Shown here: piece by piece, positions 46,096-59,157 of the stretch
Layout of the letters: each line of letters starts with the position of its first letter
Position numbering within the stretch: position 1 is the stretch's first letter
From: Chloroflexota bacterium
GTDB lineage: Bacteria; Chloroflexota; Anaerolineae; UBA1429
Assembly (NCBI GenBank): GCA_019873625.1
Contig: JAIOAW010000003.1
Location: 39,675 to 103,674, forward strand
DNA: 64,000 bases
Direction: 5' to 3'
Notes under the pieces: model-generated
Told to the model about the DNA's origin: nothing
What the model saw: only the letters and a program-made list of their open reading frames with translations
The model's database searches: none
Translations under genes and position numbers: made by a program

Positions 46096-48246
46096 ATGGC
46101 CCCATTTGATGACCTGGCCCAGGAATTGACGCCCGAACAGCGGCGCGTCGTCTCTTTCGCCCGCGAGGGGGGTGCGAGCCTCTTGGTGCGGGGCCTGCCC
46201 GGCACGGGCAAGACGACGGCCCTGGTGCGCCGCTTGGCCGCGATGGTGAGCGAGGGGCGCCGGCCGTATGAAATCCTCGTCTTGGTACCCCAACGCGCCC
46301 CTGGAGACCGCTTCGAGCGCGCCCTCTCGGTGCTGCAAGCGCCCACGCGCGGCGGCGCCGAAATCGTTACATTCTACAGCCTCTCGCGCCGGGGCGTGGC
46401 CCTCTTTTGGCCGCTGGTGGCCGCTCAGGCGGGTTTTGCCCACCCGGAGCGCGAACCCGTCTTCCTCACGTTGGAGACGGCCCAATATTATATGTGGCGC
46501 ATCGTCGAGCCGCTCATCCGTGAACAGGGCTATTTTAACGATTTGGCCATCCCACGGGGGCGGCTCCTTTCGCAACTCATTGATAACTTGAACAAGTCGG
46601 CGCTCGTCGGGTTTGACCATACGGATATCTATGCCCGGCTGCGGGGGGCTTGGGTGGGCGCCCAAGATCGCCTCCATCGCTTTTGGCAGGCCCAAGATTG
46701 CGCGACGCGCTTTCGCGCCTTTTGCTTGGAGCACAATCTGCTCGATTTCTCGCTGACGACGGAGGTCTATTGCCGTTACCTCCTGGCGAACCTCGTCTAT
46801 CGGCGCTACGTGCAGGCGCGCTATCGCCACCTCATCGTAGATAACCTGGAAGAAAACGTCCCCGTGGCCCAAGATTTCATCGCTTGGATGCTCACCTGGT
46901 GCCAGTCGGCCGTGCTGGCCCTCGACGAGCGGGGCGGGCATCGCATCTTCTTGGGGGCCGATGCCGAGGGCGCCCTGGAGGTGGGGCAGCGCTGCCAAGA
47001 GACCCTCTCCCTATCGCGCCTCCTGAAGCCTACCGAGCACCTGCTGGCCTTTGTGGATGCGGTGAACGCCAATATCGGCGCGCGCGCCGCGCCGGCTGCG
47101 CCCCAAGGCGAGGCGCACCGCGCCACGGTGGTGAGCGGCGGCGGAGAGACGCGCTATTGGATCAGTATGCTCCGTTGGGTGGCCGAGCAAGTGGCCGCTT
47201 TGGTGGCCCAGGGCACGGCCCCTGGCGAGATCGCCCTCATCGCGCCCTATGTGAGCGATGTGATGCGCTTTGCCGTGGAAGAAGAACTCGCCCGTTACGA
47301 TATCCCCGTGCACCTTCTGCGCCCGGCCACCCCTTTGCGCGATGACCCCATCGTCCGCGGACTCCTCATTCTCCTCTGCCTGGCGCACCCCCATTGGGCG
47401 CTAGAGTTCGGCGGGGAACCGTATGCCCTCTCTGAGGAGGACGTGGCGCTCGCCCTCAAGGTGGCGCTCGCCGGCCTGGACCCCCTCCGCGCGCGCTATC
47501 TGGCGCTGGAGGCCTGGCGCGGCGAAGGCCTTCTTCCCTTGGCCGATTCGGCCCCAGCCCGTTTGTGGGAGCGCGTGGGCTTTCAGGTGCGCGAGCCTTA
47601 CGAGACCTTGCGCTCGTGGTTAGAGACGTACCGCCAAGGCCCGCCAGAACCGCTGGATATCCTCCTCAGCCGCCTGTTCGGCGATCTCCTTTCGCGGCCG
47701 GGGTTCGGCTTCTATCAGCAGCCGGAAGCGGCGCGCGCCTACGGCCGGCTGGTCGAATCCACGCGCAAATTCCGCGAGGCGGTAATGAGCGATGGCGAGG
47801 ACCCCACGCGCGTGGCGCGCGAGTACGTTCAACTCGTCCTGCGGGGGGTAGCGAGCGCCGAATACCTTCTGGATTGGCCTCGCCCGCCTCGCCCCGATGC
47901 GGTCATCCTTGGGCCAGCCTATGCCTACATCACGCGCGATATGCGCTCCGAGTACCAATTTTGGCTCGACCTCGGCTCCGATGGCTGGCTGAACCGCCCC
48001 AATCAGCCGCTGACGCACCCTTACGTCCTCTCGCGGCGCTGGCCCATTGGCCGGCCCTGGCGAGATGTGGAGGAAGAGGAGGCGCGCCGCGAAACCTTGG
48101 CCCGCGTCCTCACGGGGTTGGCGGCGCGCTGTAACCGAGGGCTGTATTTGGCCTTCAGCGAACTCGGCCTGGACGGTGCGGAGCAGCGCGGGCGCTTGCA
48201 AATGGCCATCGTAACCGTCTTGGCGAGGATAAAGCGCTATGCCTGA
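46096..48246 (+). CDS. UvrD-like helicase-family protein with a degenerate motif II (AddB-like ATP-binding subunit lacking a nuclease domain).
   Basis: Walker A is GLPGTGKTT and motif Ia-like is LVLVPQRAP. The motif II position reads HLIVDNLEEN instead of DExx. Length is 716 aa. The stop overlaps the next gene's ATG by 8 nt. Confidence 0.6.
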   Translation: MAPFDDLAQELTPEQRRVVSFAREGGASLLVRGLPGTGKTTALVRRLAAMVSEGRRPYEILVLVPQRAPGDRFERALSVLQAPTRGGAEIVTFYSLSRRGVALFWPLVAAQAGFAHPEREPVFLTLETAQYYMWRIVEPLIREQGYFNDLAIPRGRLLSQLIDNLNKSALVGFDHTDIYARLRGAWVGAQDRLHRFWQAQDCATRFRAFCLEHNLLDFSLTTEVYCRYLLANLVYRRYVQARYRHLIVDNLEENVPVAQDFIAWMLTWCQSAVLALDERGGHRIFLGADAEGALEVGQRCQETLSLSRLLKPTEHLLAFVDAVNANIGARAAPAAPQGEAHRATVVSGGGETRYWISMLRWVAEQVAALVAQGTAPGEIALIAPYVSDVMRFAVEEELARYDIPVHLLRPATPLRDDPIVRGLLILLCLAHPHWALEFGGEPYALSEEDVALALKVALAGLDPLRARYLALEAWRGEGLLPLADSAPARLWERVGFQVREPYETLRSWLETYRQGPPEPLDILLSRLFGDLLSRPGFGFYQQPEAARAYGRLVESTRKFREAVMSDGEDPTRVAREYVQLVLRGVASAEYLLDWPRPPRPDAVILGPAYAYITRDMRSEYQFWLDLGSDGWLNRPNQPLTHPYVLSRRWPIGRPWRDVEEEEARRETLARVLTGLAARCNRGLYLAFSELGLDGAEQRGRLQMAIVTVLARIKRYA

Positions 48247-50506
48247 AACCCTCTTTGGCTATCGGCTGAGGCGCGCGCAAGAGGCGGTGATGCGCTACGA
48301 AGGGGGGCGCATGGCCATCTCGGCGGTGCCCGGCAGCGGCAAGACCCTGACCTTGGCGCTCTTGGCGGCCAAGTTGATCATCGAGGGGAAGGTCGGCCCT
48401 GCGAGCGAGGTCTTGGTGGTTACGGTACAAAATTCGGCGGTGGATAACATCTCTCAGCGCATCCGCCGCCTATTGACGGAACAAAAACTGCCGCCGGTGG
48501 GCTACCGCGTGTGTACGTTGCACAAATTGGCGAGCGACATCCTACGCCGGCGGATGGATTTGGCGGGTGTGGCCGATGACCTCGTCATCGTGGATGATGC
48601 GGAATCCGACCGGATGATGCGCAACGCCGCTGAGGTGTGGCGGCTCAACCACGCGGCCCTGTGGGCGAGTTTCCTCCCGGTGGATTGGCAAGGGGGGCGC
48701 GATCGGCTGGAAAAGGAGTGGCTTGAGGAGATGGTGCGCATCGGCAAGGAGGTGACAAAACTCTGCAAGCACCTGCGCTTTACCCCGGAACGGGCACGGG
48801 AGTTTGTCGAGGCGCACCTTGCCGATGCCGAGATGACGCGCCTGGGCGTGGCCTTGTATGACCATTACGATCGCACGCTTAGGGCGAGGGGGGGCTTGGA
48901 TTTCGACGACCTCATCTGGCGGGCGATTGACGCGCTGGAGCAAGACCCCTCCTTTGCCGAAAACTTGCGCCAGCGCTGGCCGTACATCCTGGAAGATGAG
49001 GCGCAGGATAGTTCCCCCTTGCAGGAAAGCATCTTGCGCCTCCTTTGCGGCGCAGATGGCCACTGGGTGCGGATGGGCGACCCGAACCAGGCCATCAACG
49101 CCACCTTCACCGCCGCCGACCCGCGCTTCTTCCGGCGCTTTCTCGAAGAGCCGCACGTGCGGCGGCTGACCCTCCCCGAATCGGGCCGCTGCGCCCGGCC
49201 CATCCTAGAGATGGCCAATGCGCTCGTCCGTTGGGCGAGCCGCGAGCACCCCGAGAGGGCCATCCGTGAGATGGCCTTCGAACCGCAGGAGATCATCCCC
49301 ACCACGCCAGAAGATGCCCAGCAAAATCCGCCAGCCGAGGAGTGCCGCATCTATTTTCGGGCCGAGCCGTTCGACAAGGTGGATGAGGAGGCCCAGTTTG
49401 TGGCCAGGGCGGCGGCGAATTACATCAAGCGATATCCCCATCACGCTGTGGCCGTCCTGTGCCCGGCGGCGTGGCAGGGCGCCAAGGTGGTGGAGGAGTT
49501 CAAGCGCCTGCCCAAGGTGCCCTATGAGGACCTTTTGCGCACCACGCCCGAGGCGCGCAACGTCGCCCGGCTCTTGGCTGCCGCCTGCCGTTACGTCGGA
49601 GACCCCACCCAAACGCGCCCTTTGGTGGCGCTCTGGCGCGAGTTGGCGTTAGCGGGCCTCTGGGGAGAGGTGCCTGCGAGCCGAGTGCGAGACGTTTCGA
49701 CCATCTTGCGCAGTGTAGCGTTCCCCGAGTTCTTTTTCCCTAGGGCGACGTTAACGCTCGCCGAACGCTTGCCCGAGAACGTCTCCCTCTCGCCGGAGGA
49801 TGAGGCGCTCTTGGGGCGCTTTACCGCCTTAGTGGGGCGCTGGCTGAGGGCCGCCGATTTGCCCATAGACCAGATGCTCCTCGCGATGGGGCAAGACCTC
49901 TTTGGCGAGCGCGATGAGGACCTGGGGGCGCTGGCCATCTGCCACACCCTGGCGCTCAAGATGCGCACCCTCGCGCAGATTCACCCCGAAATGCGCCCCC
50001 ACGAGTATGCCAGCGAGTTGGAGGCCATCGCCCAGAACCGCCGCACCCTGCAAGAACTTGCCCTGCCCGATGCGGCCTACCTGACCAAGCCGGGCGTCAT
50101 CGTGGTAACCACGATGCACAAGGCCAAGGGGTTGGAGTGGGATGCGGTGTACCTGATGTGCGTGGATAGCCTGGAATTCCCCGCCACGGTGGATGACCCC
50201 TCGCGCGACGAACCGTACTATATGCCGGGCCGGGCGCCCGCCCTGGAGGCGCGCAAACGCCTGGAACGGGCCGCTGAAGAGGGAGTCTACACGGAAGGGA
50301 CGGATGAGGTGATCGCCCAGGGGCGGTTAGAGACGATCGCCGAGCGCCTTAGGCTGCTCTACGTTGCCATCACGCGGGCGCGGCGCAACCTGGCCTTCAC
50401 CTGGAGCCGGCACAATGGGAGCCGCCCCGTGGAGCCAGCCCTGGCGCTGAGCGTGCTACGCGCTTGGGCGGAGACAGCCCGTGCGGAGGAGGGGCTATGG
50501 CCTTGA
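48239..50506 (+). CDS. UvrD/PcrA-family ATP-dependent DNA helicase.
   Basis: Walker A is AVPGSGKT, motif II is ILEDEAQDSS, motif III is GDPNQAI and motif VI is VAITRARR. Length is 755 aa. No nuclease domain is present. Confidence 0.85.
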   Translation: MPETLFGYRLRRAQEAVMRYEGGRMAISAVPGSGKTLTLALLAAKLIIEGKVGPASEVLVVTVQNSAVDNISQRIRRLLTEQKLPPVGYRVCTLHKLASDILRRRMDLAGVADDLVIVDDAESDRMMRNAAEVWRLNHAALWASFLPVDWQGGRDRLEKEWLEEMVRIGKEVTKLCKHLRFTPERAREFVEAHLADAEMTRLGVALYDHYDRTLRARGGLDFDDLIWRAIDALEQDPSFAENLRQRWPYILEDEAQDSSPLQESILRLLCGADGHWVRMGDPNQAINATFTAADPRFFRRFLEEPHVRRLTLPESGRCARPILEMANALVRWASREHPERAIREMAFEPQEIIPTTPEDAQQNPPAEECRIYFRAEPFDKVDEEAQFVARAAANYIKRYPHHAVAVLCPAAWQGAKVVEEFKRLPKVPYEDLLRTTPEARNVARLLAAACRYVGDPTQTRPLVALWRELALAGLWGEVPASRVRDVSTILRSVAFPEFFFPRATLTLAERLPENVSLSPEDEALLGRFTALVGRWLRAADLPIDQMLLAMGQDLFGERDEDLGALAICHTLALKMRTLAQIHPEMRPHEYASELEAIAQNRRTLQELALPDAAYLTKPGVIVVTTMHKAKGLEWDAVYLMCVDSLEFPATVDDPSRDEPYYMPGRAPALEARKRLERAAEEGVYTEGTDEVIAQGRLETIAERLRLLYVAITRARRNLAFTWSRHNGSRPVEPALALSVLRAWAETARAEEGLWP

Positions 50507-51327
50507 TCGAAGCGGGGCACCTTTTCAGCCAGCACAGCCTCAACACCTATCTGCGGTGCAAGCGCCGTTTTTGGCTGAAATACATCGCACAACAACCCTG
50601 GCCTATGCCCGAGCAGGAAAATCTCTCGGAATATCAGGCGCACCTGGCACGGGGGCGCACCTTTCATCAATGGGTGGCGCGGGCGCTCTTGGGCGTGGAT
50701 GCCGATCTCCTGGGCCAAGCGGCCGCCGCCTGCGGCGATGAGGCGCTCCTTGCGTGGTGGCTGGCCTTTGGGCGGTTTGACCTTTCGATTGTGCCGGAGG
50801 GCCTGCGCGAAGTGGAGTTGCCGCTCATCGTGCCCTTGGGGGAATATCGCCTCTATGCCCGTTATGACCTCGTGGCCTTTTCGCCTTCGGGCGAGGCCGT
50901 CATCGTAGATTGGAAAACCTTGGAACGCCTGCCCTCTTGGCGAGTGATGCGGGAGCGCGTGCAGACGCGCGTTTACCTTTACGTGCTCGCTTCAGCCGGG
51001 CACATCGTAACCGGCGGCGCACCGCTGGACCCCTCCCGCCTGGAGATGATTTACTGGTTCGCCCCCTTTGAAGAGATGTTTCGCATTCCCTATTCGCGGC
51101 GCGAGTTTCAAGCGCATCGGCAGGCCCTGCTACGCCTGGTGGAAGAGATCGCGGCCTCGCCGCCGGAGGCCTTTGTTCCCACCGAAAACCCACGCGAATG
51201 CGCCTTCTGCAACTACCGCAGCCTGTGCGGGCGCCAAGAGGCCCCCAGAGACCCCTCTCTCAACTGGCTCGACGAGGAGATAGATTTCGCCCTCGATCTC
51301 GACGAGGCCATCGAGATGACCTACTAA
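50496..51327 (+). CDS. PD-(D/E)XK nuclease with a Cas4/AddB-type iron-sulfur cluster (four Cys).
   Basis: The Cys pattern is LRCKRRF ... ECAFCNYRSLCG (Cx2Cx5C). The nuclease motifs are RYDLVAF and IVDWKT. The ATG overlaps the upstream stop (ATGGCCTTGA) and follows GGAGGAGGGG. Confidence 0.75.
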
Positions 51328-52301: not shown

Positions 52302-53591
52302 ATGGGCGAGGTCATCGAACCGAGGCGATCGCTCGAGGGGTTGGAACTCTATCACCTCCGCCAGCGTTGGGCACAGCCCGATATTGCCGATATCCCCCGC
52401 GCCACGTGGGAGGCGTTAGCCCGCACGGGGGCGCTGGAGCGCATCTCGCCGGGCGATGAAATTGCCATCACCGCGGGGAGCCGAGGCATCGCCTCGATGC
52501 CCACCGTGCTCAAGACGGTGGTGGCCGCCGTGCGCGCCGCAGGCGGCCGGCCGTTCATCTTCCCGGCGATGGGCAGCCACGGCGGCGGCACGGCAGAGGG
52601 CCAGCGCGCCCTCCTGGCCAGCCTCGGCATTGACGAGGCCTCGATGGGGGCGCCCATCCGCGCCACGATGGAGGTCATCCTCATCGGTGAGACGCCCGAG
52701 GGCCTGCCCGTGTATTTGGATGCCTATGCGGCGCGCGCTCAAGGGATCATCCTCGTCAACCGCATCAAAAAACATACGAATTTCGACGGCCCTTATGAGA
52801 GCGGCCTGGCCAAGATGGCCGTCATCGGTATGGGCAAGCACCGCCAGGCCGTGGCCATACACCAATATGGCAATGAGGGCCTGCGCACGCTCATCCCCAG
52901 CGCGGCCGGGGTCGTATTCGCCAAGGCGCCCATCCTCGCGGGGCTGGGGATCATCGAGAACGCCTGGGGCGGCGTGGCGGAACTCGTGGGCCTGCGCGCC
53001 GATGAGATTTTGGCCAAAGAGCCGGCCCTCCTCCAAAAGGCCAAGGCGTGGAGCGCCAAAATCCCTTTCCATACGCTCGATATCTGCATCGTCGAGCGGA
53101 TGGGCAAGGAAATCAGCGGCACGGGGATGGATTGCTACGTCATCGGGCGGCGGCGCATCATCGGCGAGCCGGAATGGCCCGAAGCGCCAGTCATCCGTTC
53201 GCTCGTGCTCCTTGACTTGACGGAGGCCAGCCATGGCAACGGCCTGGGCGTGGGGCTGGCCGATTTCGTTTCAGAGCGGCTCGTGCGCAAGATAGACTGG
53301 CGCGTTACGCGGGCGAATATCCTGACCTCCGGCAACCTGGAGCGCGGCAAACTCCCCCTCGTATACGCCACTGACCGCGAGGCCCTAGAGGCGGCCGCCT
53401 TCCGAGAGCGCCACACGCCCGTGCCGCAACTGCGCCTGGCCTGCATCCGCGATACGCTTCACCTGCGAGATTTGCTCGTCTCCGCGCCGCTGGCTCAGGA
53501 GGCGCGCGAACGCGAGGATCTCGAGGTGTTGGAGGGGCCGTTCCCGCCGCCCTTTGACGCGGAAGGCAACTGGCATTCGCGCTTTCAGTAG
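52302..53591 (+). CDS. LarA-like (DUF2088, lactate-racemase-family) protein.
   Basis: 429 aa. The segments GSRGIA...AMGSHGG...RIKKHTNFDG match a LarA-like pattern. Assignment is by pattern memory only. Confidence 0.45.
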   Translation: MGEVIEPRRSLEGLELYHLRQRWAQPDIADIPRATWEALARTGALERISPGDEIAITAGSRGIASMPTVLKTVVAAVRAAGGRPFIFPAMGSHGGGTAEGQRALLASLGIDEASMGAPIRATMEVILIGETPEGLPVYLDAYAARAQGIILVNRIKKHTNFDGPYESGLAKMAVIGMGKHRQAVAIHQYGNEGLRTLIPSAAGVVFAKAPILAGLGIIENAWGGVAELVGLRADEILAKEPALLQKAKAWSAKIPFHTLDICIVERMGKEISGTGMDCYVIGRRRIIGEPEWPEAPVIRSLVLLDLTEASHGNGLGVGLADFVSERLVRKIDWRVTRANILTSGNLERGKLPLVYATDREALEAAAFRERHTPVPQLRLACIRDTLHLRDLLVSAPLAQEAREREDLEVLEGPFPPPFDAEGNWHSRFQ

Positions 53592-53872
53592 TGCGCGAAA
53601 AGGTCCGTGTTAAGGACGAACACCGTCGCCCGATGGGGCGGATGGGTGGGCGGGGCCAGGGAGGGATCGAGCGGTGGGCCGGCGTTCTTGTCGATGATAT
53701 CGAGCGCCTGAGTCACCCGGTGATCATCCAGCCCGATGAGAAGGGTTACGTATCCCCTTCGCCAGAACCCCCCTGTGGAACTGATGCGAGTTACGCTAAA
53801 CCCCTCTTGGTTCAGCGCAGAAGTCACGTCGGCCGCATAATCATCGCGTACGATGGCAAGGATGAGTTTCAT
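53585..53872 (-). CDS. PII-like cyclic-di-AMP receptor (DarA/PstA, DUF970-like).
   Basis: The sequence MKLILAIVRDDYAADVTSALNQEGFSVTRISSTGGFWRRGYVTLLIGLDD...ATVFVLNTDLFAHY aligns along its whole length with B. subtilis DarA (MKLIVAIVQD...TTGGF...VFV). The ATG follows GAAGGGGGT. Confidence 0.6.
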   Translation of the reverse strand: MKLILAIVRDDYAADVTSALNQEGFSVTRISSTGGFWRRGYVTLLIGLDDHRVTQALDIIDKNAGPPLDPSLAPPTHPPHRATVFVLNTDLFAHY

Positions 53873-53937
53873 GCTGACCCCCTTCTTTGGTTGGGCAGTA
53901 TTCGGTTTTACGGCATTGTTCCGGCGTGGCTCGCGTA

Positions 53938-56900
53938 TCAACTCGGGGAGGATGCGACGATAACAGGTATAAAGAACACCTCCTCACCGCATTGCAGGCC
54001 CAGGCGGCACGGTTCGGTTGGGGGGTAAGGGCCATTCCACTGCACGGCCAGGCGCACGCTCTTGCCGGGTTTGATATCCACCCGATCGCGCGGCAAGGCA
54101 AGGTAGGGCGGTTCGGCCCACAAGGTGATATGCGCGGCGGCCAAACCTCGGTTGTGAAGCACCAGCCGCCCTTGCGGGGCAGCACCCGGCTCGGGCGCCG
54201 TTAAGCGCAGTTCTTGAGGAACCTCGAGTTCGGGGGAGCGTTCGACGCTCAGTGCGGCCTCGATGTTCAGGTCTCCGCCGTTACTTTCCACCGTGATGAG
54301 CGCCACGTCATGAGGGGCTTCGGCGGGGAATTCCTCCATATCGCTCCTCACGTGGATTTCGACGGAGCGCCCTGTGGGGCACTCGAAAGAAACGCGGTCG
54401 AGCACCAGCCAGAGGCGGTCGGCGCGGAGGGTGCCTTTGAGCGTGCCCAGCCCATAATTGAAGAGGCGGAAGGAGCCGCTCACCGGCGCCAGGTTGCGCG
54501 AGGTGCCCAAATCCAGCCGAGGCGTGTCGGTCGAGAGGCGCGGCGAGGCGATGCCGGCCCGCAGGGGGATTTTGGCCCGGCCGCCGTCGCTCGTGATAAT
54601 AAGCGCCCCTTGGGCGCCCTCGGCGCCCGGTTCGATGGCCAGAGCGTAGGCCGTCAGCGTGAGAGGGGCGGCCTCTCCCGGCGCGCAGGTGCCTTCGCGG
54701 GGAGAGATTTCCAGCCAGAGGGCGTCCGTCTGGGCGACCCAGGCAAGAGGCCCTGTGCCCTCGTTGGCGAGGGTGACGATCCGCGTGGCCGGCTCGACGG
54801 GGTCGAGATAGCCGAAATCCACCGCTTCGGGTTCCACGTGCAGGGCCGGCTGTTCGACCAGGAGCGAGGCGCTCACTTCAAAGGTGCGCGGCCCCGCCGC
54901 GATGCGCAGGGCTGCGGGCACCTCTAACGCCTGGCCGCGCGCGAAAAAGGCCGTGTTCGCCCGGATGGAAAGGGTTACACTCCCCTGGGGCGGGCAATGC
55001 ACCCACTCCCGTTCGGGGGAGAGCCACTCCACTTGCGGCTGAAGGTGCGCATCGAACGGGGCGGAGCCTTCGTTCCGCAAAGTCAAGGGGCGCGTCGCGC
55101 TCTCGCCGAGGGGCACGGTGCCAAAATCGAGGTGCCGCGTCTCCAAAATGGGGAGAGGGTTCACCACCTGGGCGCGCAGAGAAAGGGTGGCCGTGCCGCC
55201 GTTCGTTTGCACGCGCACGGCCTGCGGCACTTCGAGGAGGCCATCTCGCACCGCAGAGGCATCCAAGGTGACGGAGCACGGCACGAGTTCCCCTGGCGGG
55301 CAGCGGAACTCTTGCGGCGAGACCGCTAGCCAGGGCACCAGGCTGCGGCAGGTGCCCACAAGCGGGGCATCTCCGGTGTTGCCGATGAAGAGGAGCCGTT
55401 CGGCCGCCTCGCCGCCCCGCACGGTGCCGAAATCCATATGCAGGGCGCCCAGGTCCAATTCGGCCACCTGCCGCCAGGCGCGCACGGCGATGCGCGCTTG
55501 GCCGCCATCCGTATCGAGCAGGAGGCCCTCTTCGACGGCTTGCTGCCCGCGCGGCATTTTGGCCGCCTCGGCGTGCACCTGCAGGCGCAAAGCGCTGCCC
55601 GGCGGGCAGCGGAAGGCCATCGGCTCTGGGCGCAGCCAGGGGAGCCGGGAGACGGCCTGGCCCGTCAGCATCTGCCGGCCGATGTTCTTGACCGTCAAGG
55701 CGAGCGTGCCGCGCCCTTCCCCTTGGAAGGTGCCGAAATCGAGCGCCAACGGTTCCACCTCGAGCACTGGCCCGACGTAGGTCTCCGCCGTAACGCCCAC
55801 CCATTGACGGCCGGCGTTGCCCTCGACGGAGAGGGCCTGCGGTTCGATGGTGCGGCCGGGGGTAAGGCCGTCAGCCAAGAGGGTAACGATGACTTGGGCC
55901 TGTTTGCCCGGCGCTAGGCGAAAGGCCTGGGTGGGCGCGCGCAGCCAGGGGACGTGGCTCACGATATGCCCGGCCCATTCCCCTTCGCCGGCGTTATGCA
56001 ATTTGAGCACGAGCCGGCGTTTTTCGCCCATCTTGAGGTCTGTGGCCTTGAGCGCCAGGGGTTGGATGGATAGCCGGGGCAGGGGTTGCGGTTCCGCTTC
56101 GATAGCCGTCTTGATCGGCGGCGGCGCGGGCTGAACCCCATAGCGCGGGTCTGGGATGAAGCCCAAATCCACCATCGAGGGGATGTCTCCGGCAGTTGCC
56201 GAGGGTGCGAGCACTGGGCGCACGTTGGCGCCGGCCGATGAGGCTTGCGCGAACCAATCGGCCACCGGCGTGAGCGGCCCACGGGGCGGCTCCCAAAGGG
56301 CGTCTCGCAATTCGGCCAGGGAGGCGAAGCGTTGGGCGCTATCGCGCTCGGCGGCGCGGGCGATGGTGCGCACCAGTTGCGCCGAGATGCCCGGCACGGC
56401 CTGCCGCAAGGGAATGGGGCGGGCCAGGCCCCTTTCCAAGGGATATTGGATGAGCAGGGCATAGAGGGTGCGCCCTAGGGCAAAGCCATCGGTGAGCGGG
56501 CTAGGGGGCGTGCGGCCCAATTCGGGGGCCGCATAGCCCGGGAGGCTCCCATAGGGGCCATATGCCGTGGGGTTAAAGAACTGCCCCAGGCCAAAGCCCA
56601 CGATTTTCACCACGCCCTCCGTGCTCACGATAAAGTGGGCCGGCGCCAGGAATGGCGCATAGAGGGGAGGGTTCTGGCTATGCAAGGTGTGGAGCGCATC
56701 CGCCAACTGGGCGCCCCAATTGCGCGCCAGGTCTGGCGTAACGCGCAGGCCGCTCTCTTCGATGAGGCGCTGGCCGCTCCAGCCGTTCACAAATTCCAAG
56801 ATGACATAATATCGGTCGCGTTCGGCGAACCAATCCAAGATGCGCGCGAGGCCCGCGTGCTCTACGCGCCCCCAACGTTCCAGGGCGGTATAGAGGGCGC

Positions 56901-57267
56901 GCTCTGCCTCACGGCGCTCATCGGGCCGGAACATAGCGACGGCCGAAATCTCTTTGACGCAGACCGTTTGGCCCGTTCGGCCATCGGTGGCGCGATAGAC
57001 GGCCGTTACGCGGCCAGAGGCGAGGGGTTCGCGGAGGATGTATCGGTCGCGCAGCGTGCGCTGTTCGGGGGCACCGCGAAAGAGGTCTGCAAACGAACGC
57101 GCATCCGCAGAGGCGGCGTCACAGCGGGCGCAGCGGGGCACATACCACGGCCGGGGCGTTCCGCAAATGGGGCAGTATTGGACGAGGGGCGCGCGGCAAT
57201 AGGCGCAGGCCGTAGCCCCTGGGTCGTTGAGTTGATTGCACTTGGGGCATCGGAGTTTCGTCGCCAT
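53938..57267 (-). CDS. Double zinc-ribbon / Ser-Thr pseudokinase / seven DUF1573 (ASH, PapD-like beta-sandwich) repeats. Cytoplasmic.
   Basis: The zinc ribbons are CPKC..CAYC and CPIC..CARC. The kinase fold has VCVKEI and APEL, but the HRD position reads LYAPFLAPAH and the DFG position reads GFG. Seven repeats of about 100 aa follow the pattern L(D/H)FGTV..G......L.L.N.G. Confidence 0.7.
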   Translation of the reverse strand: MATKLRCPKCNQLNDPGATACAYCRAPLVQYCPICGTPRPWYVPRCARCDAASADARSFADLFRGAPEQRTLRDRYILREPLASGRVTAVYRATDGRTGQTVCVKEISAVAMFRPDERREAERALYTALERWGRVEHAGLARILDWFAERDRYYVILEFVNGWSGQRLIEESGLRVTPDLARNWGAQLADALHTLHSQNPPLYAPFLAPAHFIVSTEGVVKIVGFGLGQFFNPTAYGPYGSLPGYAAPELGRTPPSPLTDGFALGRTLYALLIQYPLERGLARPIPLRQAVPGISAQLVRTIARAAERDSAQRFASLAELRDALWEPPRGPLTPVADWFAQASSAGANVRPVLAPSATAGDIPSMVDLGFIPDPRYGVQPAPPPIKTAIEAEPQPLPRLSIQPLALKATDLKMGEKRRLVLKLHNAGEGEWAGHIVSHVPWLRAPTQAFRLAPGKQAQVIVTLLADGLTPGRTIEPQALSVEGNAGRQWVGVTAETYVGPVLEVEPLALDFGTFQGEGRGTLALTVKNIGRQMLTGQAVSRLPWLRPEPMAFRCPPGSALRLQVHAEAAKMPRGQQAVEEGLLLDTDGGQARIAVRAWRQVAELDLGALHMDFGTVRGGEAAERLLFIGNTGDAPLVGTCRSLVPWLAVSPQEFRCPPGELVPCSVTLDASAVRDGLLEVPQAVRVQTNGGTATLSLRAQVVNPLPILETRHLDFGTVPLGESATRPLTLRNEGSAPFDAHLQPQVEWLSPEREWVHCPPQGSVTLSIRANTAFFARGQALEVPAALRIAAGPRTFEVSASLLVEQPALHVEPEAVDFGYLDPVEPATRIVTLANEGTGPLAWVAQTDALWLEISPREGTCAPGEAAPLTLTAYALAIEPGAEGAQGALIITSDGGRAKIPLRAGIASPRLSTDTPRLDLGTSRNLAPVSGSFRLFNYGLGTLKGTLRADRLWLVLDRVSFECPTGRSVEIHVRSDMEEFPAEAPHDVALITVESNGGDLNIEAALSVERSPELEVPQELRLTAPEPGAAPQGRLVLHNRGLAAAHITLWAEPPYLALPRDRVDIKPGKSVRLAVQWNGPYPPTEPCRLGLQCGEEVFFIPVIVASSPS

Positions 57268-57386
57268 CGCCCTTGATCCCGTAACTGCCTTCTCGTGGAG
57301 ACGTCCTCACGGGGCACATCACGCGGCATCGCCTCCGCTGAGATCACCGAAAAATAAAGGGAACAGCCTTTTTCGAGGCTCGCCTG

Positions 57387-57415
57387 TATTATAGCGATGG
57401 ATGGGGTTGTGTCAA
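57387..57415 (-). promoter_or_regulatory. Consensus sigma70 promoter (TTGACA-17-TATAAT on the minus strand) for the pseudokinase operon.
   Basis: Read directly. It is followed within about 7 nt by a hairpin AGCCU-CGAAAA-AGGCU (57364-57379) and a U-rich tract, at the start of a leader of roughly 110 nt. Confidence 0.6.
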
Positions 57416-57428
57416 AGCACCCCGGTAA

Positions 57429-57458
57429 GGGGCTGCCGAAGGGGAAATCGGCAGCCCC
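57429..57458 (-). terminator. Perfect 11-bp stem hairpin downstream of the flavin reductase gene.
   Basis: The hairpin is ggggctgccga-aggggaaa-tcggcagcccc. It has no obvious U-tract. Confidence 0.5.
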
Positions 57459-57475
57459 AGGCCAATGGAGGAACG

Positions 57476-57994
57476 TCAGGCGCCCGGCACGGCGAAAGTG
57501 CCAAGGATTTCGCCATAGTAGAGGCGGTGGTAGTCTTTCCCGCCGTAGGAGGTGGCCTCGACGGCAGGATCCAGGTGGGCGGGGATGACATCGTTGTAAT
57601 GGATCACGCGGCACTCGTACACGATGGGGCAGGCATCAATCGTGACGGCCTCGACGAGTTGCCCACGGCTTATGGAGATGTTGTAGGCCGCGAATTTATC
57701 CACCGTGCGGCCGCTGCGGCTGCCGCAAAAGCCCACCCATTCGCGGAGCGCCTCGGAGGGCACGTTGACGGTGAACACCTTGGAATCTTCGATGAATTCG
57801 TAGGTATAGCGAGAAGGGCGCACGAGCACCACGAAGCAGGGCCTGCCCCAGATGATGCCCACTGTGCCCCAGCCGATGGTCATCACGTTCGAGGCGCCCG
57901 AGCGCTTTGTCGAGGCCAGGAGAAGGCCGGGGTTGCTCAATAGCGAAAGCGTCTTATCCAATTGGAAGGTAAAGGGCACGCGCGTGCGTTCCAT
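57476..57994 (-). CDS. Flavin-reductase-like FMN-binding split-barrel protein.
   Basis: 172 aa. The segment ASNVMTIGWGTVGIIWGRPCFVVLVRPSRYTYEFI matches the flavin reductase family. The ribosome-binding site is AAAGGAG. Confidence 0.65.
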   Translation of the reverse strand: MERTRVPFTFQLDKTLSLLSNPGLLLASTKRSGASNVMTIGWGTVGIIWGRPCFVVLVRPSRYTYEFIEDSKVFTVNVPSEALREWVGFCGSRSGRTVDKFAAYNISISRGQLVEAVTIDACPIVYECRVIHYNDVIPAHLDPAVEATSYGGKDYHRLYYGEILGTFAVPGA

Positions 57995-58040
57995 AGAATC
58001 TCCTTTCTATACTGGTCGTTCGAGGTGTGCGAAAGAGGCG

Positions 58041-58068
58041 TTGACAACCCTATGGGCGCTATTATAAT
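58041..58068 (+). promoter_or_regulatory. Consensus sigma70 promoter TTGACA-16-TATAAT upstream of dprA.
   Basis: Read directly. It lies 34 nt upstream of the ATG. Confidence 0.6.
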
Positions 58069-58101
58069 CACGCTGAGTAGGGTTCACAACAAGGGTGTGC
58101 G

Positions 58102-59157
58102 ATGGCGTATTCAGAGGCTGCCTATTGGCTGGCGGCGCTTTCGGCGCAAGCGCCCCCTCGGCGCGTGGTCAAACGAGCGCTCTATGCCTGGTGCATCGAG
58201 GGAGGGCGGTCAGCGGCGGACCTTTTCGGGGCTTCCGCTGAGGATATCGCGCAAGAGTGCGCCATACAGCCGGACGAGGCGCGGGCCATCCTAGCGGCGG
58301 GTGCTTTATTAGAACGCGCCCAAAGGTCGCTGGACGAGTTGGCCCGGCGGGGGGCGCGCGTGGTTACGCGGGCCGATGAGGCTTACCCGGACGATTGGGC
58401 GCGCCTCGGCGAGGAATGGCAACCCTATTATGCCGTTTGCCGGGGCGATTTGGCCATCTTGACCGAGCCGGGGGTGGCCGTGCTGGGCGCAACCCACCCC
58501 GATGCGGAGACGGCCAGCCTGGCCCAGGCGCTCGCGCAGTGGCTCGCCGCAGAGGGGCACTACCTCGTGGGCGGGTATGACGAGGGCGTAGACCGCCTCG
58601 CCCTCGAGGCCGCCGCGCAGGCCGGCGGCGCTACGGTGCTCGTCTTGGCGGAGGGGTTGCTGCAGAATCGGCCCCTCCTCGAGGCGGAAGGGGCGCGCCC
58701 AGGGGCCTTGCGGCTTGTGCTCAGCCCATTCGCGCCCGAGGCGCCTCGGCGAGAAAATCAGGCCGTGGCACGGCGGGCGCTCATCTTGGCCCTGTGCGGG
58801 GCTGCCTTTTTCCTGGCGCCCGATGAGGGGCCGGAGCGCTGGCCGCTCATCGGCGAACTTGCGCGCGGGGGGCTGGGCCTTTTTCTGTGGCAAAGGGGTG
58901 AGGAGCCGCTCCCGCCCGAATGGGCTGCGCTCGGCGCGCGGCCCTTCAGGGGGCTGGGGGACCTGCGCTATGCCCCGCCCACGGAGGCGGCGCCCCTCTT
59001 GCGCCTGGGAGAAGCGGAGGCCGAAGGCCCTGAAGCGCCGCCCATCGCCTTTCGAGATGCTCAAGAGGCCATTGCCCGCCTGGGCCAAACGGGCAAGGTG
59101 CCCGAGAAACTGGCCAAACGCCTGCGCGCGACGCTGCCCAAAGGCTCGGCGGAATGA
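58102..59157 (+). CDS. dprA: DNA-processing protein DprA/Smf-like.
   Basis: The Rossmann DprA-domain pattern is GVAVLGATHPDAE...LVGGYDEGVDRLALEAA..AGGATVLVLAEGL...RENQAVARRALILALCGAAFFLAPDEG. Confidence 0.6.
   Translation: MAYSEAAYWLAALSAQAPPRRVVKRALYAWCIEGGRSAADLFGASAEDIAQECAIQPDEARAILAAGALLERAQRSLDELARRGARVVTRADEAYPDDWARLGEEWQPYYAVCRGDLAILTEPGVAVLGATHPDAETASLAQALAQWLAAEGHYLVGGYDEGVDRLALEAAAQAGGATVLVLAEGLLQNRPLLEAEGARPGALRLVLSPFAPEAPRRENQAVARRALILALCGAAFFLAPDEGPERWPLIGELARGGLGLFLWQRGEEPLPPEWAALGARPFRGLGDLRYAPPTEAAPLLRLGEAEAEGPEAPPIAFRDAQEAIARLGQTGKVPEKLAKRLRATLPKGSAE

What the first reader, a model, noticed from the sequence alone, without database searches (positions are those of the whole stretch)
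53585..57475. Giant cytoplasmic zinc-ribbon pseudokinase with seven DUF1573/ASH repeats, in an apparent operon with a DarA-like PII protein
The 1109-aa product starts with two zinc ribbons (CPKC..CAYC; CPIC..CARC). A Hanks-type kinase fold follows, retaining the beta3 lysine (VCVKEI) and the APE motif. The catalytic HRD Asp and the DFG Asp are both replaced (LYAPFLAPAH and GFG), so it is predicted to be catalytically dead. Seven tandem beta-sandwich repeats of about 100 aa follow (L.FG.V..G......L.L.N.G ... C.PG). There is no signal peptide and no transmembrane segment.

The next gene, 65 bp downstream, is a 95-aa PII-fold protein. It aligns with the cyclic-di-AMP receptor DarA/PstA (MKLI.AIV.D...TGGF...VFV).

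This combination (nucleotide-second-messenger receptor plus a scaffold-like pseudokinase) is not a combination I recognise. It could be a signalling or scaffolding module.
Basis: partly seen in the sequence, partly recalled or inferred. Interest (0 to 1): 0.65.

Follow-up and report, generated by a model that had tools for sequence, protein, structure and literature searches.

The report
Dead kinase paired with c-di-AMP receptor
A giant, catalytically dead, membrane-less kinase-like protein in uncultured Anaerolineae (Chloroflexota) is always encoded just upstream of its own short subtype of the DarA/PstA cyclic-di-AMP receptor, which gives a testable candidate partner for a receptor family whose targets have been hard to find.

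Summary

65 bp downstream, 53585..53872(-) encodes a 95-aa PII-fold protein of Pfam CdAMP_rec. Its best structural matches are PstA/DarA.

New here: about 80 full-length relatives exist, all in Anaerolineae/Chloroflexota MAGs, and all DarA-linked ones lack the catalytic Asp. The pair is strictly conserved:
- 25/25 testable kinase-anchored loci have the DarA-like gene downstream.
- 62/62 testable loci anchored on the small gene have the pseudokinase upstream.
- The median spacer is 53 bp, and six loci have overlapping stop/start codons.

Relatives with the same architecture that keep the Asp lack the DarA gene. A second DarA subtype (85-88 aa) never has the pseudokinase.

Best reading: a co-transcribed sensor-scaffold pair. 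Direct binding and the ligand are inferred, not shown. I found no published description.

The parts
57388..57415 (-). Sigma-70-type promoter-like site TTGACA-16-TATAAT (12/12), upstream of the pseudokinase gene
   Evidence: scan. Both hexamers are invariant in the two closest relatives L115 and L116. A GC-rich hairpin lies between the flavin-reductase stop and this site. Consensus match only; function not shown.
57268..57381 (-). Putative 5' leader of about 113 nt
   Evidence: Sequence. No Rfam family. Folding is no better than shuffles, z = 0.23. The terminator-like hairpin plus T-run at 57380..57365 is not conserved in L115/L116.
53938..57267 (-). Pseudokinase gene, 1109 aa (zinc ribbons, kinase-like domain, linker, seven Ig-like repeats)
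   Evidence: About 84 full-length relatives at 29-86% identity, all from Anaerolineae/Chloroflexota MAGs or metagenomes.
57112..57255 (-). Double zinc ribbon, aa 5-52 (CPKC..CAYC and CPIC..CARC)
   Evidence: Eight Cys conserved in the DarA-linked clade. Pfam DZR 21.4 bits, below its cutoff. AF2 predicts short beta-hairpins, pLDDT 74-90. Some outgroups have one ribbon only.
56248..57060 (-). Hanks-type kinase fold without catalytic residues, aa 70-340
56635..56667 (-). Degenerate catalytic loop PLYAPFLAPAH, aa 201-211 (HRD Asp to F206, Lys to A208, Asn to H211)
   Evidence: HMMER alignments to PknG and Stk1. P-[FH]-[LVM]-x-[PA]-x-H is found in every DarA-linked homologue.
56590..56598 (-). GFG in place of DFG, aa 224-226
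   Evidence: alignment. This position is D or G across the family, so it is not under catalytic constraint.
56137..56178 (-). Conserved short motif SMVDLGFIPDPRYG (aa 364-377) inside an otherwise variable, low-confidence linker
   Evidence: The AF2 linker has pLDDT 45-63. The motif SM.xLGFxxDPR[FY]G is present in the DarA-linked clade and absent in outgroups. It is a candidate docking site (inference).
53953..56076 (-). Seven tandem Ig-like (ASH/PapD-like/HYDIN-type) repeats of about 102 aa, aa 398-1105
   Evidence: Invariant N.G...W register. Pfam PF22544 65 bits, ASH 43.4, BACON_2 39.3. NCBIfam choice-of-anchor D 56.5 bits against a cutoff of 45. Repeats 5-7 carry many clade-specific charged invariants.
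53873..53937 (-). 65-nt intergenic spacer with Shine-Dalgarno GAAGGGGG; no promoter or terminator match
   Evidence: Conserved in L115/L116. Across 63 pairs the spacer median is 53 bp, six loci have a 4-nt overlap, and 56/63 are 130 bp or less.
53585..53872 (-). DarA/PstA-like PII-fold protein, 95 aa, short-B-loop subtype
   Evidence: CdAMP_rec 71.2 bits. Best PDB sequence hit is B. subtilis YaaQ/DarA, E 4e-12. AF2 pLDDT 88. Foldseek top hits are PstA + c-di-AMP 4rww, then 4wk1, 4d3h and 4rle.
53753..53773 (-). T-loop GGFWRRG (aa 34-40), equivalent to the c-di-AMP-binding 34-GGFL-37 turn of PstA
   Evidence: G34, G35, F36, R38 and G40 are invariant and W37 and R39 nearly invariant in alignment A3. 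Ligand contacts in LmPstA are from PMC4475381.
53630..53683 (-). Shortened Pro-rich B-loop (aa 64-81, AGPPLDPSLAPPTHPPHR)
   Evidence: About 14 aa shorter than B. subtilis DarA (alignment). AGP and HPPHR are conserved in the 95-aa subtype and different in the 85-88-aa subtype.

Best explanation
The two genes form one transcription unit: its own promoter, an unstructured leader, the pseudokinase, then a short spacer with a strong ribosome-binding site, then the DarA-like gene.

The large protein is a cytoplasmic, catalytically dead Hanks-kinase homologue that serves as a scaffold. It consists of two zinc ribbons, a kinase-shaped module, a flexible linker carrying one conserved short motif, and seven Ig-like protein-interaction domains.

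The small protein is a (by family, presumably trimeric) PII-like nucleotide sensor of the DarA/PstA family. It most probably binds cyclic di-AMP in the inter-subunit clefts.

Proposed mechanism: the sensor binds the pseudokinase, and ligand occupancy changes that binding. Candidate contact sites are the pseudo-active site, the clade-specific linker motif, or Ig repeats 5-7. The second-messenger level would then control what the Ig array recruits or how the scaffold assembles, possibly by bringing three chains together on one trimer.

Shown: the domain anatomy, loss of catalytic residues across the clade, membership of the small protein in the CdAMP_rec fold family, and strict two-way co-occurrence with operon-like spacing.

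Inferred: co-transcription, direct binding, the identity of the ligand, and the downstream output.
For: Anatomy and dead active site.

Family-wide loss of the catalytic Asp. All DarA-linked homologues carry P[FH]L.P.H. The DFG position is freely D or G, the G-loop is degenerate, and K105 is Q or T in a few members.

Control. Canonical paralogues on the same contigs show HxDIKPAN, DFG and GxGxxG in the same tblastn alignments to the query.

Pairing.
- 25/25 testable species-level genome loci have the DarA-like gene directly downstream on the same strand.
- 62/62 testable loci (genome, metagenome and assembly contigs pooled, own contig excluded, not deduplicated) whose DarA-like gene is at least 57% identical have the pseudokinase upstream.
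- The other neighbours are kept less often: LarA-like 29/40 and flavin reductase 14/32.

Spacing. Median 53 bp, six loci with ATGA-type stop/start overlap, and a strong SD sequence in almost all loci. No promoter or terminator match in the spacer.

Specificity in both directions.
- Same-architecture relatives that keep the Asp (P0076, P0083), and P0084, have other genes downstream. For P0079 the contig ends 175 nt after the gene, with only a convergent gene fragment there, so it is not informative.
- The 85-88-aa DarA subtype never has the pseudokinase (0/42; about half of these contigs hold enough upstream sequence to tell). In 5 of 8 loci inspected it sits directly after a second CdAMP_rec-like gene.

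Ligand site. T28, G34-G35-F36, G47, T83 (= T97), F85 (= F99) and H94 (= H108) match the c-di-AMP contacts of LmPstA.

Partner surface. The B-loop, the element thought to contact partners in PstA (PMC12435418), is the part that differs between subtypes.

Weak co-evolution signal. Partial r(PsK, DarA | LarA) = 0.32, against r(DarA, LarA | PsK) = 0.07.
Against: - No physical-interaction, expression or ligand-binding data exist. All organisms are uncultured MAGs.
- The whole block (flavin reductase, pseudokinase, DarA-like, LarA-like, M55 peptidase) is inherited vertically with congruent distances. r(PsK, LarA) = 0.94 is higher than r(PsK, DarA) = 0.76, so part of the adjacency could be inherited synteny.
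- Residue 41 is Tyr here and in 11 of the 37 sequences in alignment A3. Asn41Ala in LmPstA weakens binding to a Kd of about 140 uM.
- The B-loop is about 14 aa shorter, and the NCBIfam DarA equivalog cutoff is missed (70 against 140).
- No diadenylate cyclase could be sought in the genome. None was found in the 0.97 Mb held, using a query recalled from memory.
- Seven of 63 spacers are 247-343 bp and could hold an internal promoter.
Confidence: 0.58

Rival explanations
1. Inherited synteny only. The two genes are neighbours because the whole chromosomal block is conserved by descent within one bacterial class. The DarA-like protein acts on other targets (for example GlnR/GlnA-type targets, as recently proposed for S. 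aureus PstA), and the pseudokinase works independently.
For: Neighbouring genes that cannot be in the same operon are also often retained: the convergent LarA-like gene in 29/40 loci and the M55 peptidase. Distance matrices of all three proteins are congruent. A different kind of PstA partner is reported in PMC13484208.
Against: The pair is retained 100% of the time from both anchors, while the other neighbours are kept in 44-72% of loci. The genes share a strand, have short spacers, and overlap stop and start codons in six loci. The DarA subtype boundary coincides exactly with presence or absence of the pseudokinase. Three Asp-retaining or otherwise divergent relatives of the same architecture lack the small gene.
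Confidence: 0.2
2. The pair is functional, but the small protein senses a ligand other than c-di-AMP (for example ATP/ADP, cAMP or another nucleotide), as some other PII-like proteins do.
For: Position 41 is Tyr/Asn-variable, R26 is replaced by Ser, the B-loop is shortened, and the score is below the DarA equivalog cutoff. c-di-AMP synthesis in these organisms was not verified.
Against: The GGF turn, T28, G47, and the beta4 Thr/Phe and C-terminal His/Arg contacts are conserved. The best sequence and structure matches are all c-di-AMP-binding PstA/DarA, ahead of the canonical PII proteins. By established knowledge of the PII family, the Walker-A-like B-loop motif of ATP-binding PII proteins is absent.
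Confidence: 0.2
3. The large protein is not dead. It is an atypical enzyme (a kinase with migrated catalytic residues, or a SelO/SidJ-like AMPylase or glutamylase) that modifies the DarA-like protein or another substrate.
For: The beta3 Lys, alphaC Glu and APE are largely conserved, and a His is nearly invariant at the Asn position. Pseudokinase folds with alternative chemistry are known (reviewed in PMC12599244).
Against: No acidic residue is conserved at either the HRD or the DFG position, and DFG is Gly in about half of members. The Gly-rich loop is absent family-wide, and K105 is Gln or Thr in several members.
Confidence: 0.07
4. An anti-phage defence kinase of the PD-T4-6 or MADS Mad6 type.
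For: PADLOC PD-T4-6 and mad6 models hit aa 67-330 at about 75 bits. NCBIfam MADS6 scores 42 bits.
Against: The scores are at the level of the generic Pkinase match and far below the NCBIfam cutoff (42 against 460). The catalytic residues such kinases need are missing. The context is conserved housekeeping chromosome (SelB, UvrD-like helicases, DprA, P-type ATPase) with stable vertical synteny. The small protein has no PADLOC hit.
Confidence: 0.02

Closest known systems
DarA (B. subtilis YaaQ) / PstA (S. aureus, L. monocytogenes): PII-like c-di-AMP receptors, Pfam PF06153
   Same: It has the same ferredoxin-like PII fold, with best sequence hit 4rle and best structure hit 4rww. The N-terminal 64 residues align at about 50% identity. 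The T28, GGF turn, G47, beta4 Thr/Phe and C-terminal His ligand contacts are conserved. It is a small stand-alone protein.
   Different: - It is 95 aa against about 109.
- The B-loop is about 14 residues shorter and Pro-rich.
- S26 replaces R26, and residue 41 is Tyr or Asn.
- It scores half the NCBIfam DarA equivalog cutoff.
- It is found in Chloroflexota rather than Firmicutes.
- It is always encoded after a giant pseudokinase. From my own knowledge, not checked here, the Firmicute gene lies in the tmk-yaaQ-yaaR-holB region.
Bacterial Hanks-type Ser/Thr kinases PknB/Stk1/PpkA, and soluble PknG
   Different: There is no Gly-rich loop and no catalytic Asp, Lys or Asn, and the DFG Asp is dispensable. 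There is no TM segment and no PASTA or TPR. The C-terminal part is seven Ig-like domains.
Described bacterial pseudokinases: EssB/YukC, the MviN pseudokinase domain, and the ActPs1-3, GLW, CP1, DYD and DLHK families (review PMC12599244)
   Same: It has a kinase fold that has lost its catalytic motifs and is conserved as a family, with a presumed scaffold or recruitment role.
   Different: The review mentions none of the following: Chloroflexota, zinc ribbons, Ig-like arrays or PII partners (term search). GLW members lack the beta3 Lys and are membrane-anchored, whereas this family keeps the Lys and has no TM. Formal assignment to those families could not be tested because no models were available.
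Classical PII-target pairs (GlnB/GlnK with AmtB, NAGK or PipX; SbtB with SbtA or GlgB)
   Same: The logic is the same: a small trimeric nucleotide sensor encoded next to the protein it regulates (glnK-amtB, sbtA-sbtB). This rests on established knowledge and on PMC10117731 as listed.
   Different: Here the neighbour is a non-enzymatic kinase-fold scaffold rather than a transporter or enzyme. The interaction is not shown.

Membership tests
Protein kinase superfamily (Pfam PF00069, Hanks/ePK fold) | Profile match above the curated cutoff and a bilobal kinase fold | tested here: met
Catalytically competent Hanks kinase | HRD catalytic Asp, catalytic-loop Lys and Asn, DFG Asp, and a GxGxxG loop | tested here: not met
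   F206, A208, H211 and G224; the G-loop is LASGRVTAV. The same loss is seen in all DarA-linked homologues, while neighbouring paralogues are canonical.
Catalytically competent Hanks kinase | beta3 Lys, alphaC Glu and the APE motif | tested here: met
   K105, E117 and A247-P248-E249 are at least 90% conserved. K105 is Q or T in four aligned members.
DarA/PstA c-di-AMP receptor (Pfam PF06153 CdAMP_rec) | Profile match above the Pfam cutoff and a PII-like fold | tested here: met
   71.2 bits against a cutoff of 27, covering profile positions 1-64 of 109. AF2 pLDDT 88. The top 14 Foldseek hits are PstA, DarA or the homologue PEPE_1480.
DarA/PstA c-di-AMP receptor | NCBIfam DarA equivalog score | tested here: not met
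   70.1 bits against a cutoff of 140. It is a divergent subfamily, not an equivalog.
DarA/PstA c-di-AMP receptor | Ligand-contact residues: T28, 34-GGF(L)-37, N41, G47, T97, F99, H108 (LmPstA numbering, PMC4475381) | tested here: inconclusive
   T28, G34, G35, F36, G47, T83 and F85 are conserved, and H94 is H or R. Residue 41 is Tyr here and Asn in 26 of the 37 aligned sequences.
DarA/PstA c-di-AMP receptor | Long B-loop (about 30 aa) | tested here: not met
   The B-loop is about 18 aa, roughly 14 shorter than in B. subtilis DarA.
DarA/PstA c-di-AMP receptor | Binds c-di-AMP as a homotrimer | not testable with these tools
   Needs DRaCALA or ITC and SEC-MALS on recombinant protein. Only monomer prediction was available.
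Double zinc ribbon (Pfam PF12773 DZR) | Profile score above cutoff; four CxxC pairs | tested here: inconclusive
   21.4 bits against a cutoff of 27.3. All eight Cys are conserved in the clade.
ASH/PapD-like Ig domains (PF22544, PF15780; NCBIfam choice-of-anchor D) | Profile matches above cutoffs | tested here: met
   PF22544 65 bits against 25.5, ASH 43.4 against 27, BACON_2 39.3 against 25, and choice_anch_D 56.5 against 45.
   21.4 bits against a cutoff of 26.1. I take it to be a related Ig-like family (my assignment, not checked here), so the label is approximate.
Published bacterial pseudokinase families (ActPs1-3, GLW, CP1, DYD, DLHK) | Family-specific constraint patterns | not tested
   No models were available. 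The review text has no mention of Chloroflexota, zinc or Ig-like domains.
Defence kinases PD-T4-6 / MADS Mad6 | Specific profile score, active kinase, defence-island context | tested here: not met
   Only generic hits at about 75 bits. MADS6 scores 42 against a cutoff of 460. Catalytic residues are absent and the context is housekeeping.

The most novel reading that the evidence does not exclude
This is a previously undescribed second-messenger output module. A c-di-AMP-loaded or c-di-AMP-free DarA/PstA-type trimer docks directly on a giant cytoplasmic pseudokinase, through its pseudo-active site or the SM.xLGFxxDPR[FY]G linker motif. That docking would switch the assembly or cargo-binding of a seven-Ig-domain scaffold in filamentous Anaerolineae. 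It would be the first genomically hard-wired partner of a DarA/PstA protein and the first pseudokinase regulated by a PII-like protein. The loss of the catalytic Asp in this clade would have coincided with recruitment of the sensor.
Probability: 0.35. Interest if true: 0.78.

Novelty: new variant of a known kind. Interest (0 to 1): 0.6.

Why it matters
DarA/PstA proteins are conserved c-di-AMP receptors. A 2023 review says their interaction partner 'has escaped its identification' despite extensive efforts (PMC10636490). A 2025 paper still calls the partners unknown (PMC12802241). A first candidate, GlnR/GlnA in S. aureus, appears only in a July 2026 preprint (PMC13484208).

A DarA subtype that is encoded with one specific protein in every testable locus gives a concrete hypothesis that can be tested in vitro: which surface a DarA-type protein reads, and how ligand state is transmitted. 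The B-loop differs between the partner-linked and unlinked subtypes, which fits that idea.

For the pseudokinase field, it adds a conserved bacterial family with an unusual all-cytoplasmic architecture (zinc ribbons, dead kinase, Ig array). It also offers a natural evolutionary series from Asp-retaining relatives without the sensor gene to Asp-less ones with it.

The limits are real. The organisms are uncultured, and the link to Firmicute DarA biology is indirect.

Tried and rejected
- **Riboswitch or structured leader upstream of the operon.** Rfam at gathering threshold on the whole window gave nothing. The permissive scan of 53400-58200 gave only chance-level hits, with E at least 0.76. The 117-nt leader folds no better than shuffles, z = 0.23. 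The terminator-like hairpin at 57380..57365 is not conserved in L115/L116. Rejected.
- **tRNA genes as integration markers.** None in the window.
- **Defence-system reading.** PADLOC and NCBIfam hits are generic kinase-domain matches. Rejected.
- **Misaligned active kinase.** Rejected by two HMMER alignments and by canonical paralogues in the same alignment frame.
- **Hidden TM segment.** The hydropathy maximum is 1.29 in the query. The 12 family members above 1.6 have their peak at non-conserved positions, 11 inside the Ig repeats and one in the kinase domain, and never in the kinase-Ig linker. Rejected.
- **Mirror-tree co-evolution test.** Only a weak signal, confounded by shared phylogeny and the short length of the small protein. 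Reported as inconclusive.
- **Diadenylate cyclase search.** tblastn with a DAC sequence recalled from memory found nothing in the window or the 0.97 Mb of fetched loci. This is uninformative about the genome.
- **Technical dead ends.** The first genome-contig scan with the 44-sequence alignment failed for lack of a conserved stretch, and was repeated with 13 sequences. The afdb50 fold library was unavailable. One Pfam call failed because of a wrong frame.
- **Profile search of 1.84 billion representatives.** Only about a dozen 50%-identity clusters match the full-length profile in one stretch. It gave useful outgroup sequences, but their genomic context could not be looked up.

Full report
**1. 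What is in the sequence**

The minus strand of 53585-57475 holds two genes.

- The large gene runs 57267 to 53938 and encodes 1109 aa. It starts at an ATG, and its MATK.RCPKCN N-terminus is shared by homologues.
- The small gene starts at ATG 53872 and ends with its stop at 53585, giving 95 aa. The gap between the genes is 65 nt and carries a GAAGGGGG Shine-Dalgarno sequence.
- The longer TTG-initiated 118-aa ORF is an artefact of mechanical ORF calling. Nearly all of the 187 homologues found are 95-98 aa.
- Upstream of the large gene lies a 12/12 match to TTGACA-16-TATAAT (57415..57388). It is preceded by a GC-rich hairpin that follows the stop of the flavin-reductase gene at 57476..57994. 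The large gene therefore appears to have its own promoter.
- Both hexamers are invariant in the two closest relatives.
- The roughly 113-nt leader has no Rfam match and folds no better than shuffled sequence.

**2. The large protein**

Pfam gives Pkinase at 65.1 bits (cutoff 31.7), aa 80-277. It also gives HYDIN_VesB_CFA65-like_Ig at 65 bits, ASH at 43.4 and BACON_2 at 39.3. DZR and DUF1573 are sub-threshold. NCBIfam adds choice-of-anchor D at 56.5 bits against a cutoff of 45.

An AF2 model of aa 1-400, built on 40 homologues, has mean pLDDT 86:
- above 90 through most of aa 70-340;
- short beta-hairpins for the two Cys4 ribbons;
- a low-confidence linker at aa 350-400.

HMMER alignments to C. 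glutamicum PknG and S. aureus Stk1 put A204-P-F206-L-A208-P-A-H211 on H-R-D-L-K-P-x-N, and G224-F-G on D-F-G. The glycine-rich loop reads LASGRVTAV. K105 (beta3), E117 (alphaC) and A247-P-E are present.

Seven Ig-like repeats follow, in a strict register of about 102 aa. They are marked by invariant N.G plus Trp at N425, N528, N630, N732, N835, N937 and N1039.

The highest 19-residue hydropathy window is 1.29. The N-terminus is a zinc ribbon, so there is no signal peptide and no TM helix. In relatives, the few windows above 1.6 lie at varying positions, nearly all inside the Ig repeats, and never in the kinase-Ig linker.

**3. A conserved family, dead throughout the relevant clade**

A search of 5.8 billion proteins found about 84 full-length relatives of about 1100 aa at 29-86% identity. 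Wherever a source names them, they come from Anaerolineae/Chloroflexota MAGs.

A profile search of 1.84 billion 50%-identity representatives found only about a dozen clusters matching the whole profile in one stretch. The family is therefore small and sharply bounded.

In the core clade:
- The catalytic loop is P-[FH]-[LVM]-x-[PA]-x-H.
- The DFG position is Asp in some members and Gly in others.
- The G-loop is degenerate.
- K105 is occasionally Gln or Thr.

As an internal control, paralogous zinc-ribbon kinases a few kb away on six related contigs show SKGGMG, HxDIKPAN and DFG in the same alignment frame.

More distant proteins of the same architecture keep an Asp: FSDLKPGH, FADLKPGH, FGDLTPSH and [FL]RDLK[MP]SH. 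They already have the degenerate G-loop and His in place of Asn. This gives an evolutionary series that ends in the Asp-less clade.

**4. The small protein**

- Pfam CdAMP_rec scores 71.2 bits, over profile positions 1-64 only. The NCBIfam DarA equivalog model scores 70 against a cutoff of 140.
- The best PDB sequence hits are B. subtilis YaaQ/DarA (4rle, E 4e-12), L. monocytogenes PstA and S. aureus PstA.
- The AF2 model (pLDDT 88) is a ferredoxin-like PII fold.
- The first 14 Foldseek hits are PstA/DarA-family structures, led by c-di-AMP-bound 4rww, ahead of the canonical GlnB/GlnK proteins.

I compared it with the ligand contacts described for LmPstA in PMC4475381, using alignment A3:

| LmPstA contact | This protein / subfamily |
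|---|---|
| T28 | conserved |
| G34-G35-F36 | conserved |
| G47 | conserved |
| T97 | T83, conserved |
| F99 | F85, conserved |
| H108 | H94 (His or Arg in the subfamily) |
| R26 (dispensable) | Ser |
| N41 | Tyr here; Asn in 26 of 37 aligned relatives |

The B-loop is about 14 residues shorter than in DarA and is Pro-rich, with conserved AGP and HPPHR.

**5. The pairing**

Anchored on the large protein, a scan of one genome per GTDB species returned 27 loci, all Anaerolineae/Chloroflexota MAGs. In 25 of them the DarA-like gene lies immediately downstream on the same strand. In the other two the contig ends at or inside the large gene.

Anchored on the small protein, a metagenome scan returned 80 loci.
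- Every locus whose DarA-like gene is at least 57% identical and has more than 500 bp upstream has the pseudokinase there.
- Pooled over all held loci except the window's own contig, the count is 62/62.
- All 42 loci with the more distant subtype (85-88 aa, 44-53% identical) lack it, although only about half of those contigs hold enough upstream sequence to tell.
- In 5 of 8 such loci inspected, that subtype sits directly after a second, 114-138-aa PII-like gene (confirmed as CdAMP_rec for L072). In four of those five an upstream protein of about 800 aa is present, with an MGH1-like glycoside-hydrolase domain in L072.

Other neighbours are kept less often: the convergent LarA-like nickel-pincer isomerase in 29/40 loci and the flavin reductase in 14/32.

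Across 63 pairs:
- the spacer median is 53 bp;
- six loci have the small gene's start overlapping the large gene's stop by 4 nt;
- 56 spacers are 130 bp or less;
- nearly all have a strong SD sequence.

No promoter or terminator match lies in the window's spacer, and the spacer is conserved in close relatives.

I looked up four divergent same-architecture relatives. P0076 and P0083 keep the Asp, and P0084 has PNLAARH. All three have unrelated genes downstream. P0079's contig ends 175 nt after the gene, with a convergent gene fragment, so it is not informative.

The DarA-linked clade also uniquely carries a short conserved motif, SM.xLGFxxDPR[FY]G, in the otherwise variable linker. It also has clade-specific charged invariants in Ig repeats 5-7.

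**6. Interpretation**

Shown:
- a conserved, cytoplasmic, catalytically disabled kinase-fold protein with zinc ribbons and seven Ig-like domains;
- a divergent DarA/PstA-family PII-like protein;
- strict, bidirectional, subtype-specific co-occurrence with operon-like spacing.

Inferred:
- The two are co-transcribed and act together.
- The small protein senses c-di-AMP.
- Its ligand state controls binding to the pseudokinase, and through it whatever the Ig array recruits. Candidate binding sites are the pseudo-active site, the linker motif, and Ig5-7.

The B-loop is the element thought to contact partners in PstA (PMC12435418). It is exactly what distinguishes the partner-linked subtype from the unlinked one.

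A mirror-tree test gave only a weak signal: partial r = 0.32, against 0.07 for the control. It also showed that the whole block is vertically inherited. The main rival, inherited synteny without direct interaction, therefore cannot be dismissed.

An alternative-chemistry enzyme is unlikely, because no acidic residue is conserved at either catalytic position. A defence-kinase reading is rejected.

**7. Comparison with what is known**

The small protein works like, and belongs to the Pfam family of, DarA/PstA. It fails the equivalog cutoff and the long-B-loop feature, so I file it as a new subfamily.

The large protein belongs to the kinase fold superfamily, but it is a pseudokinase.

Its layout recalls PknG: soluble, with a Cys4 module, then the kinase domain, then repeats. 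There is no activity and no TPR.

A 2025 review of bacterial pseudokinase families lists ActPs1-3, GLW, CP1, DYD and DLHK. It does not mention Chloroflexota, zinc ribbons, Ig arrays or PII partners.

Full-text searches found no paper that holds both Anaerolineae and c-di-AMP. They also found nothing relevant that holds both pseudokinase and c-di-AMP.

Reviews and papers up to 2025 state that DarA/PstA partners are unknown. A July 2026 preprint proposes GlnR/GlnA in S. aureus.

**8. Verdict**

The module is a new variant built from known parts, with a strong comparative-genomic case for functional coupling and no experimental evidence yet. Interest is 0.6.

Noticed in passing
L072:3185-6954 (also L078, L089, L093; L103 lacks the upstream ~800-aa gene): In other Chloroflexota-like metagenome contigs, a second DarA subtype (85-88 aa) sits directly after another PII-like gene of 114-138 aa (5 of 8 loci inspected). 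In four of those five the pair follows a protein of about 800 aa and is followed by a ~220-aa protein and an AMMECR1-like gene. Pfam on L072 gives MGH1-like (mannosylglycerate-hydrolase-type) glycoside hydrolase, CdAMP_rec, DUF4013 and AMMECR1. A compatible-solute hydrolase next to c-di-AMP receptor homologues fits the messenger's osmolyte role. I found no description of this arrangement.
   Followed up: partly
L014:1020-2543, L017:1509-3050, L018:1873-2769, L023:2585-3475, L027:2610-3359, L028:278-1063 (opposite strand): A canonical Hanks kinase with intact GxGxxG-like loop, HxDIKPAN and DFG lies about 5-7 kb upstream of the pseudokinase in six related contigs; tblastn alignments to the query begin at aa 8-32, suggesting an N-terminal zinc-ribbon region, not checked. 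No such paralogue is present in the 64-kb window. It could be an active partner or ancestor of the pseudokinase.
   Followed up: partly
window 52302-53591 (+): The convergent neighbour is a LarA-like protein that passes the NCBIfam model 'nickel pincer cofactor-dependent isomerase, group 22' (475 bits against a cutoff of 400). Its stop overlaps the 3' end of the DarA-like gene by 7 bp. It is retained next to the pair in 29/40 loci.
   Followed up: partly
window 58041-58068 (+) and 58061-58089 (-): A second perfect 12/12 sigma-70 consensus (TTGACA-16-TATAAT) lies upstream of the DprA-like gene (58102..59157). It overlaps a 10/12 site on the other strand that faces the flavin-reductase gene. Five promoter-like sites were found in 5.5 kb, against 1.0 expected.
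   Followed up: no
window 46096-51327 (+): Two consecutive UvrD-like helicase genes (716 and 755 aa) are followed by a PD-(D/E)XK nuclease gene that overlaps the second helicase. This is an AddAB/AdnAB-like arrangement.
   Followed up: no
window 38373-40268 (+): A SelB selenocysteine-specific elongation factor (GTP_EFTU plus SelB winged-helix domains) implies selenoprotein use in this organism.
   Followed up: no
window 53938-57267 (-), aa 893-902, 975-981 and 1064-1072: Ig repeats 5-7 carry clade-specific invariant charged patches (SDGGRAK.PLR, TDMEEFP, DIKPGKSVR). These are absent from the outgroups that lack the DarA-like gene.
   Followed up: partly
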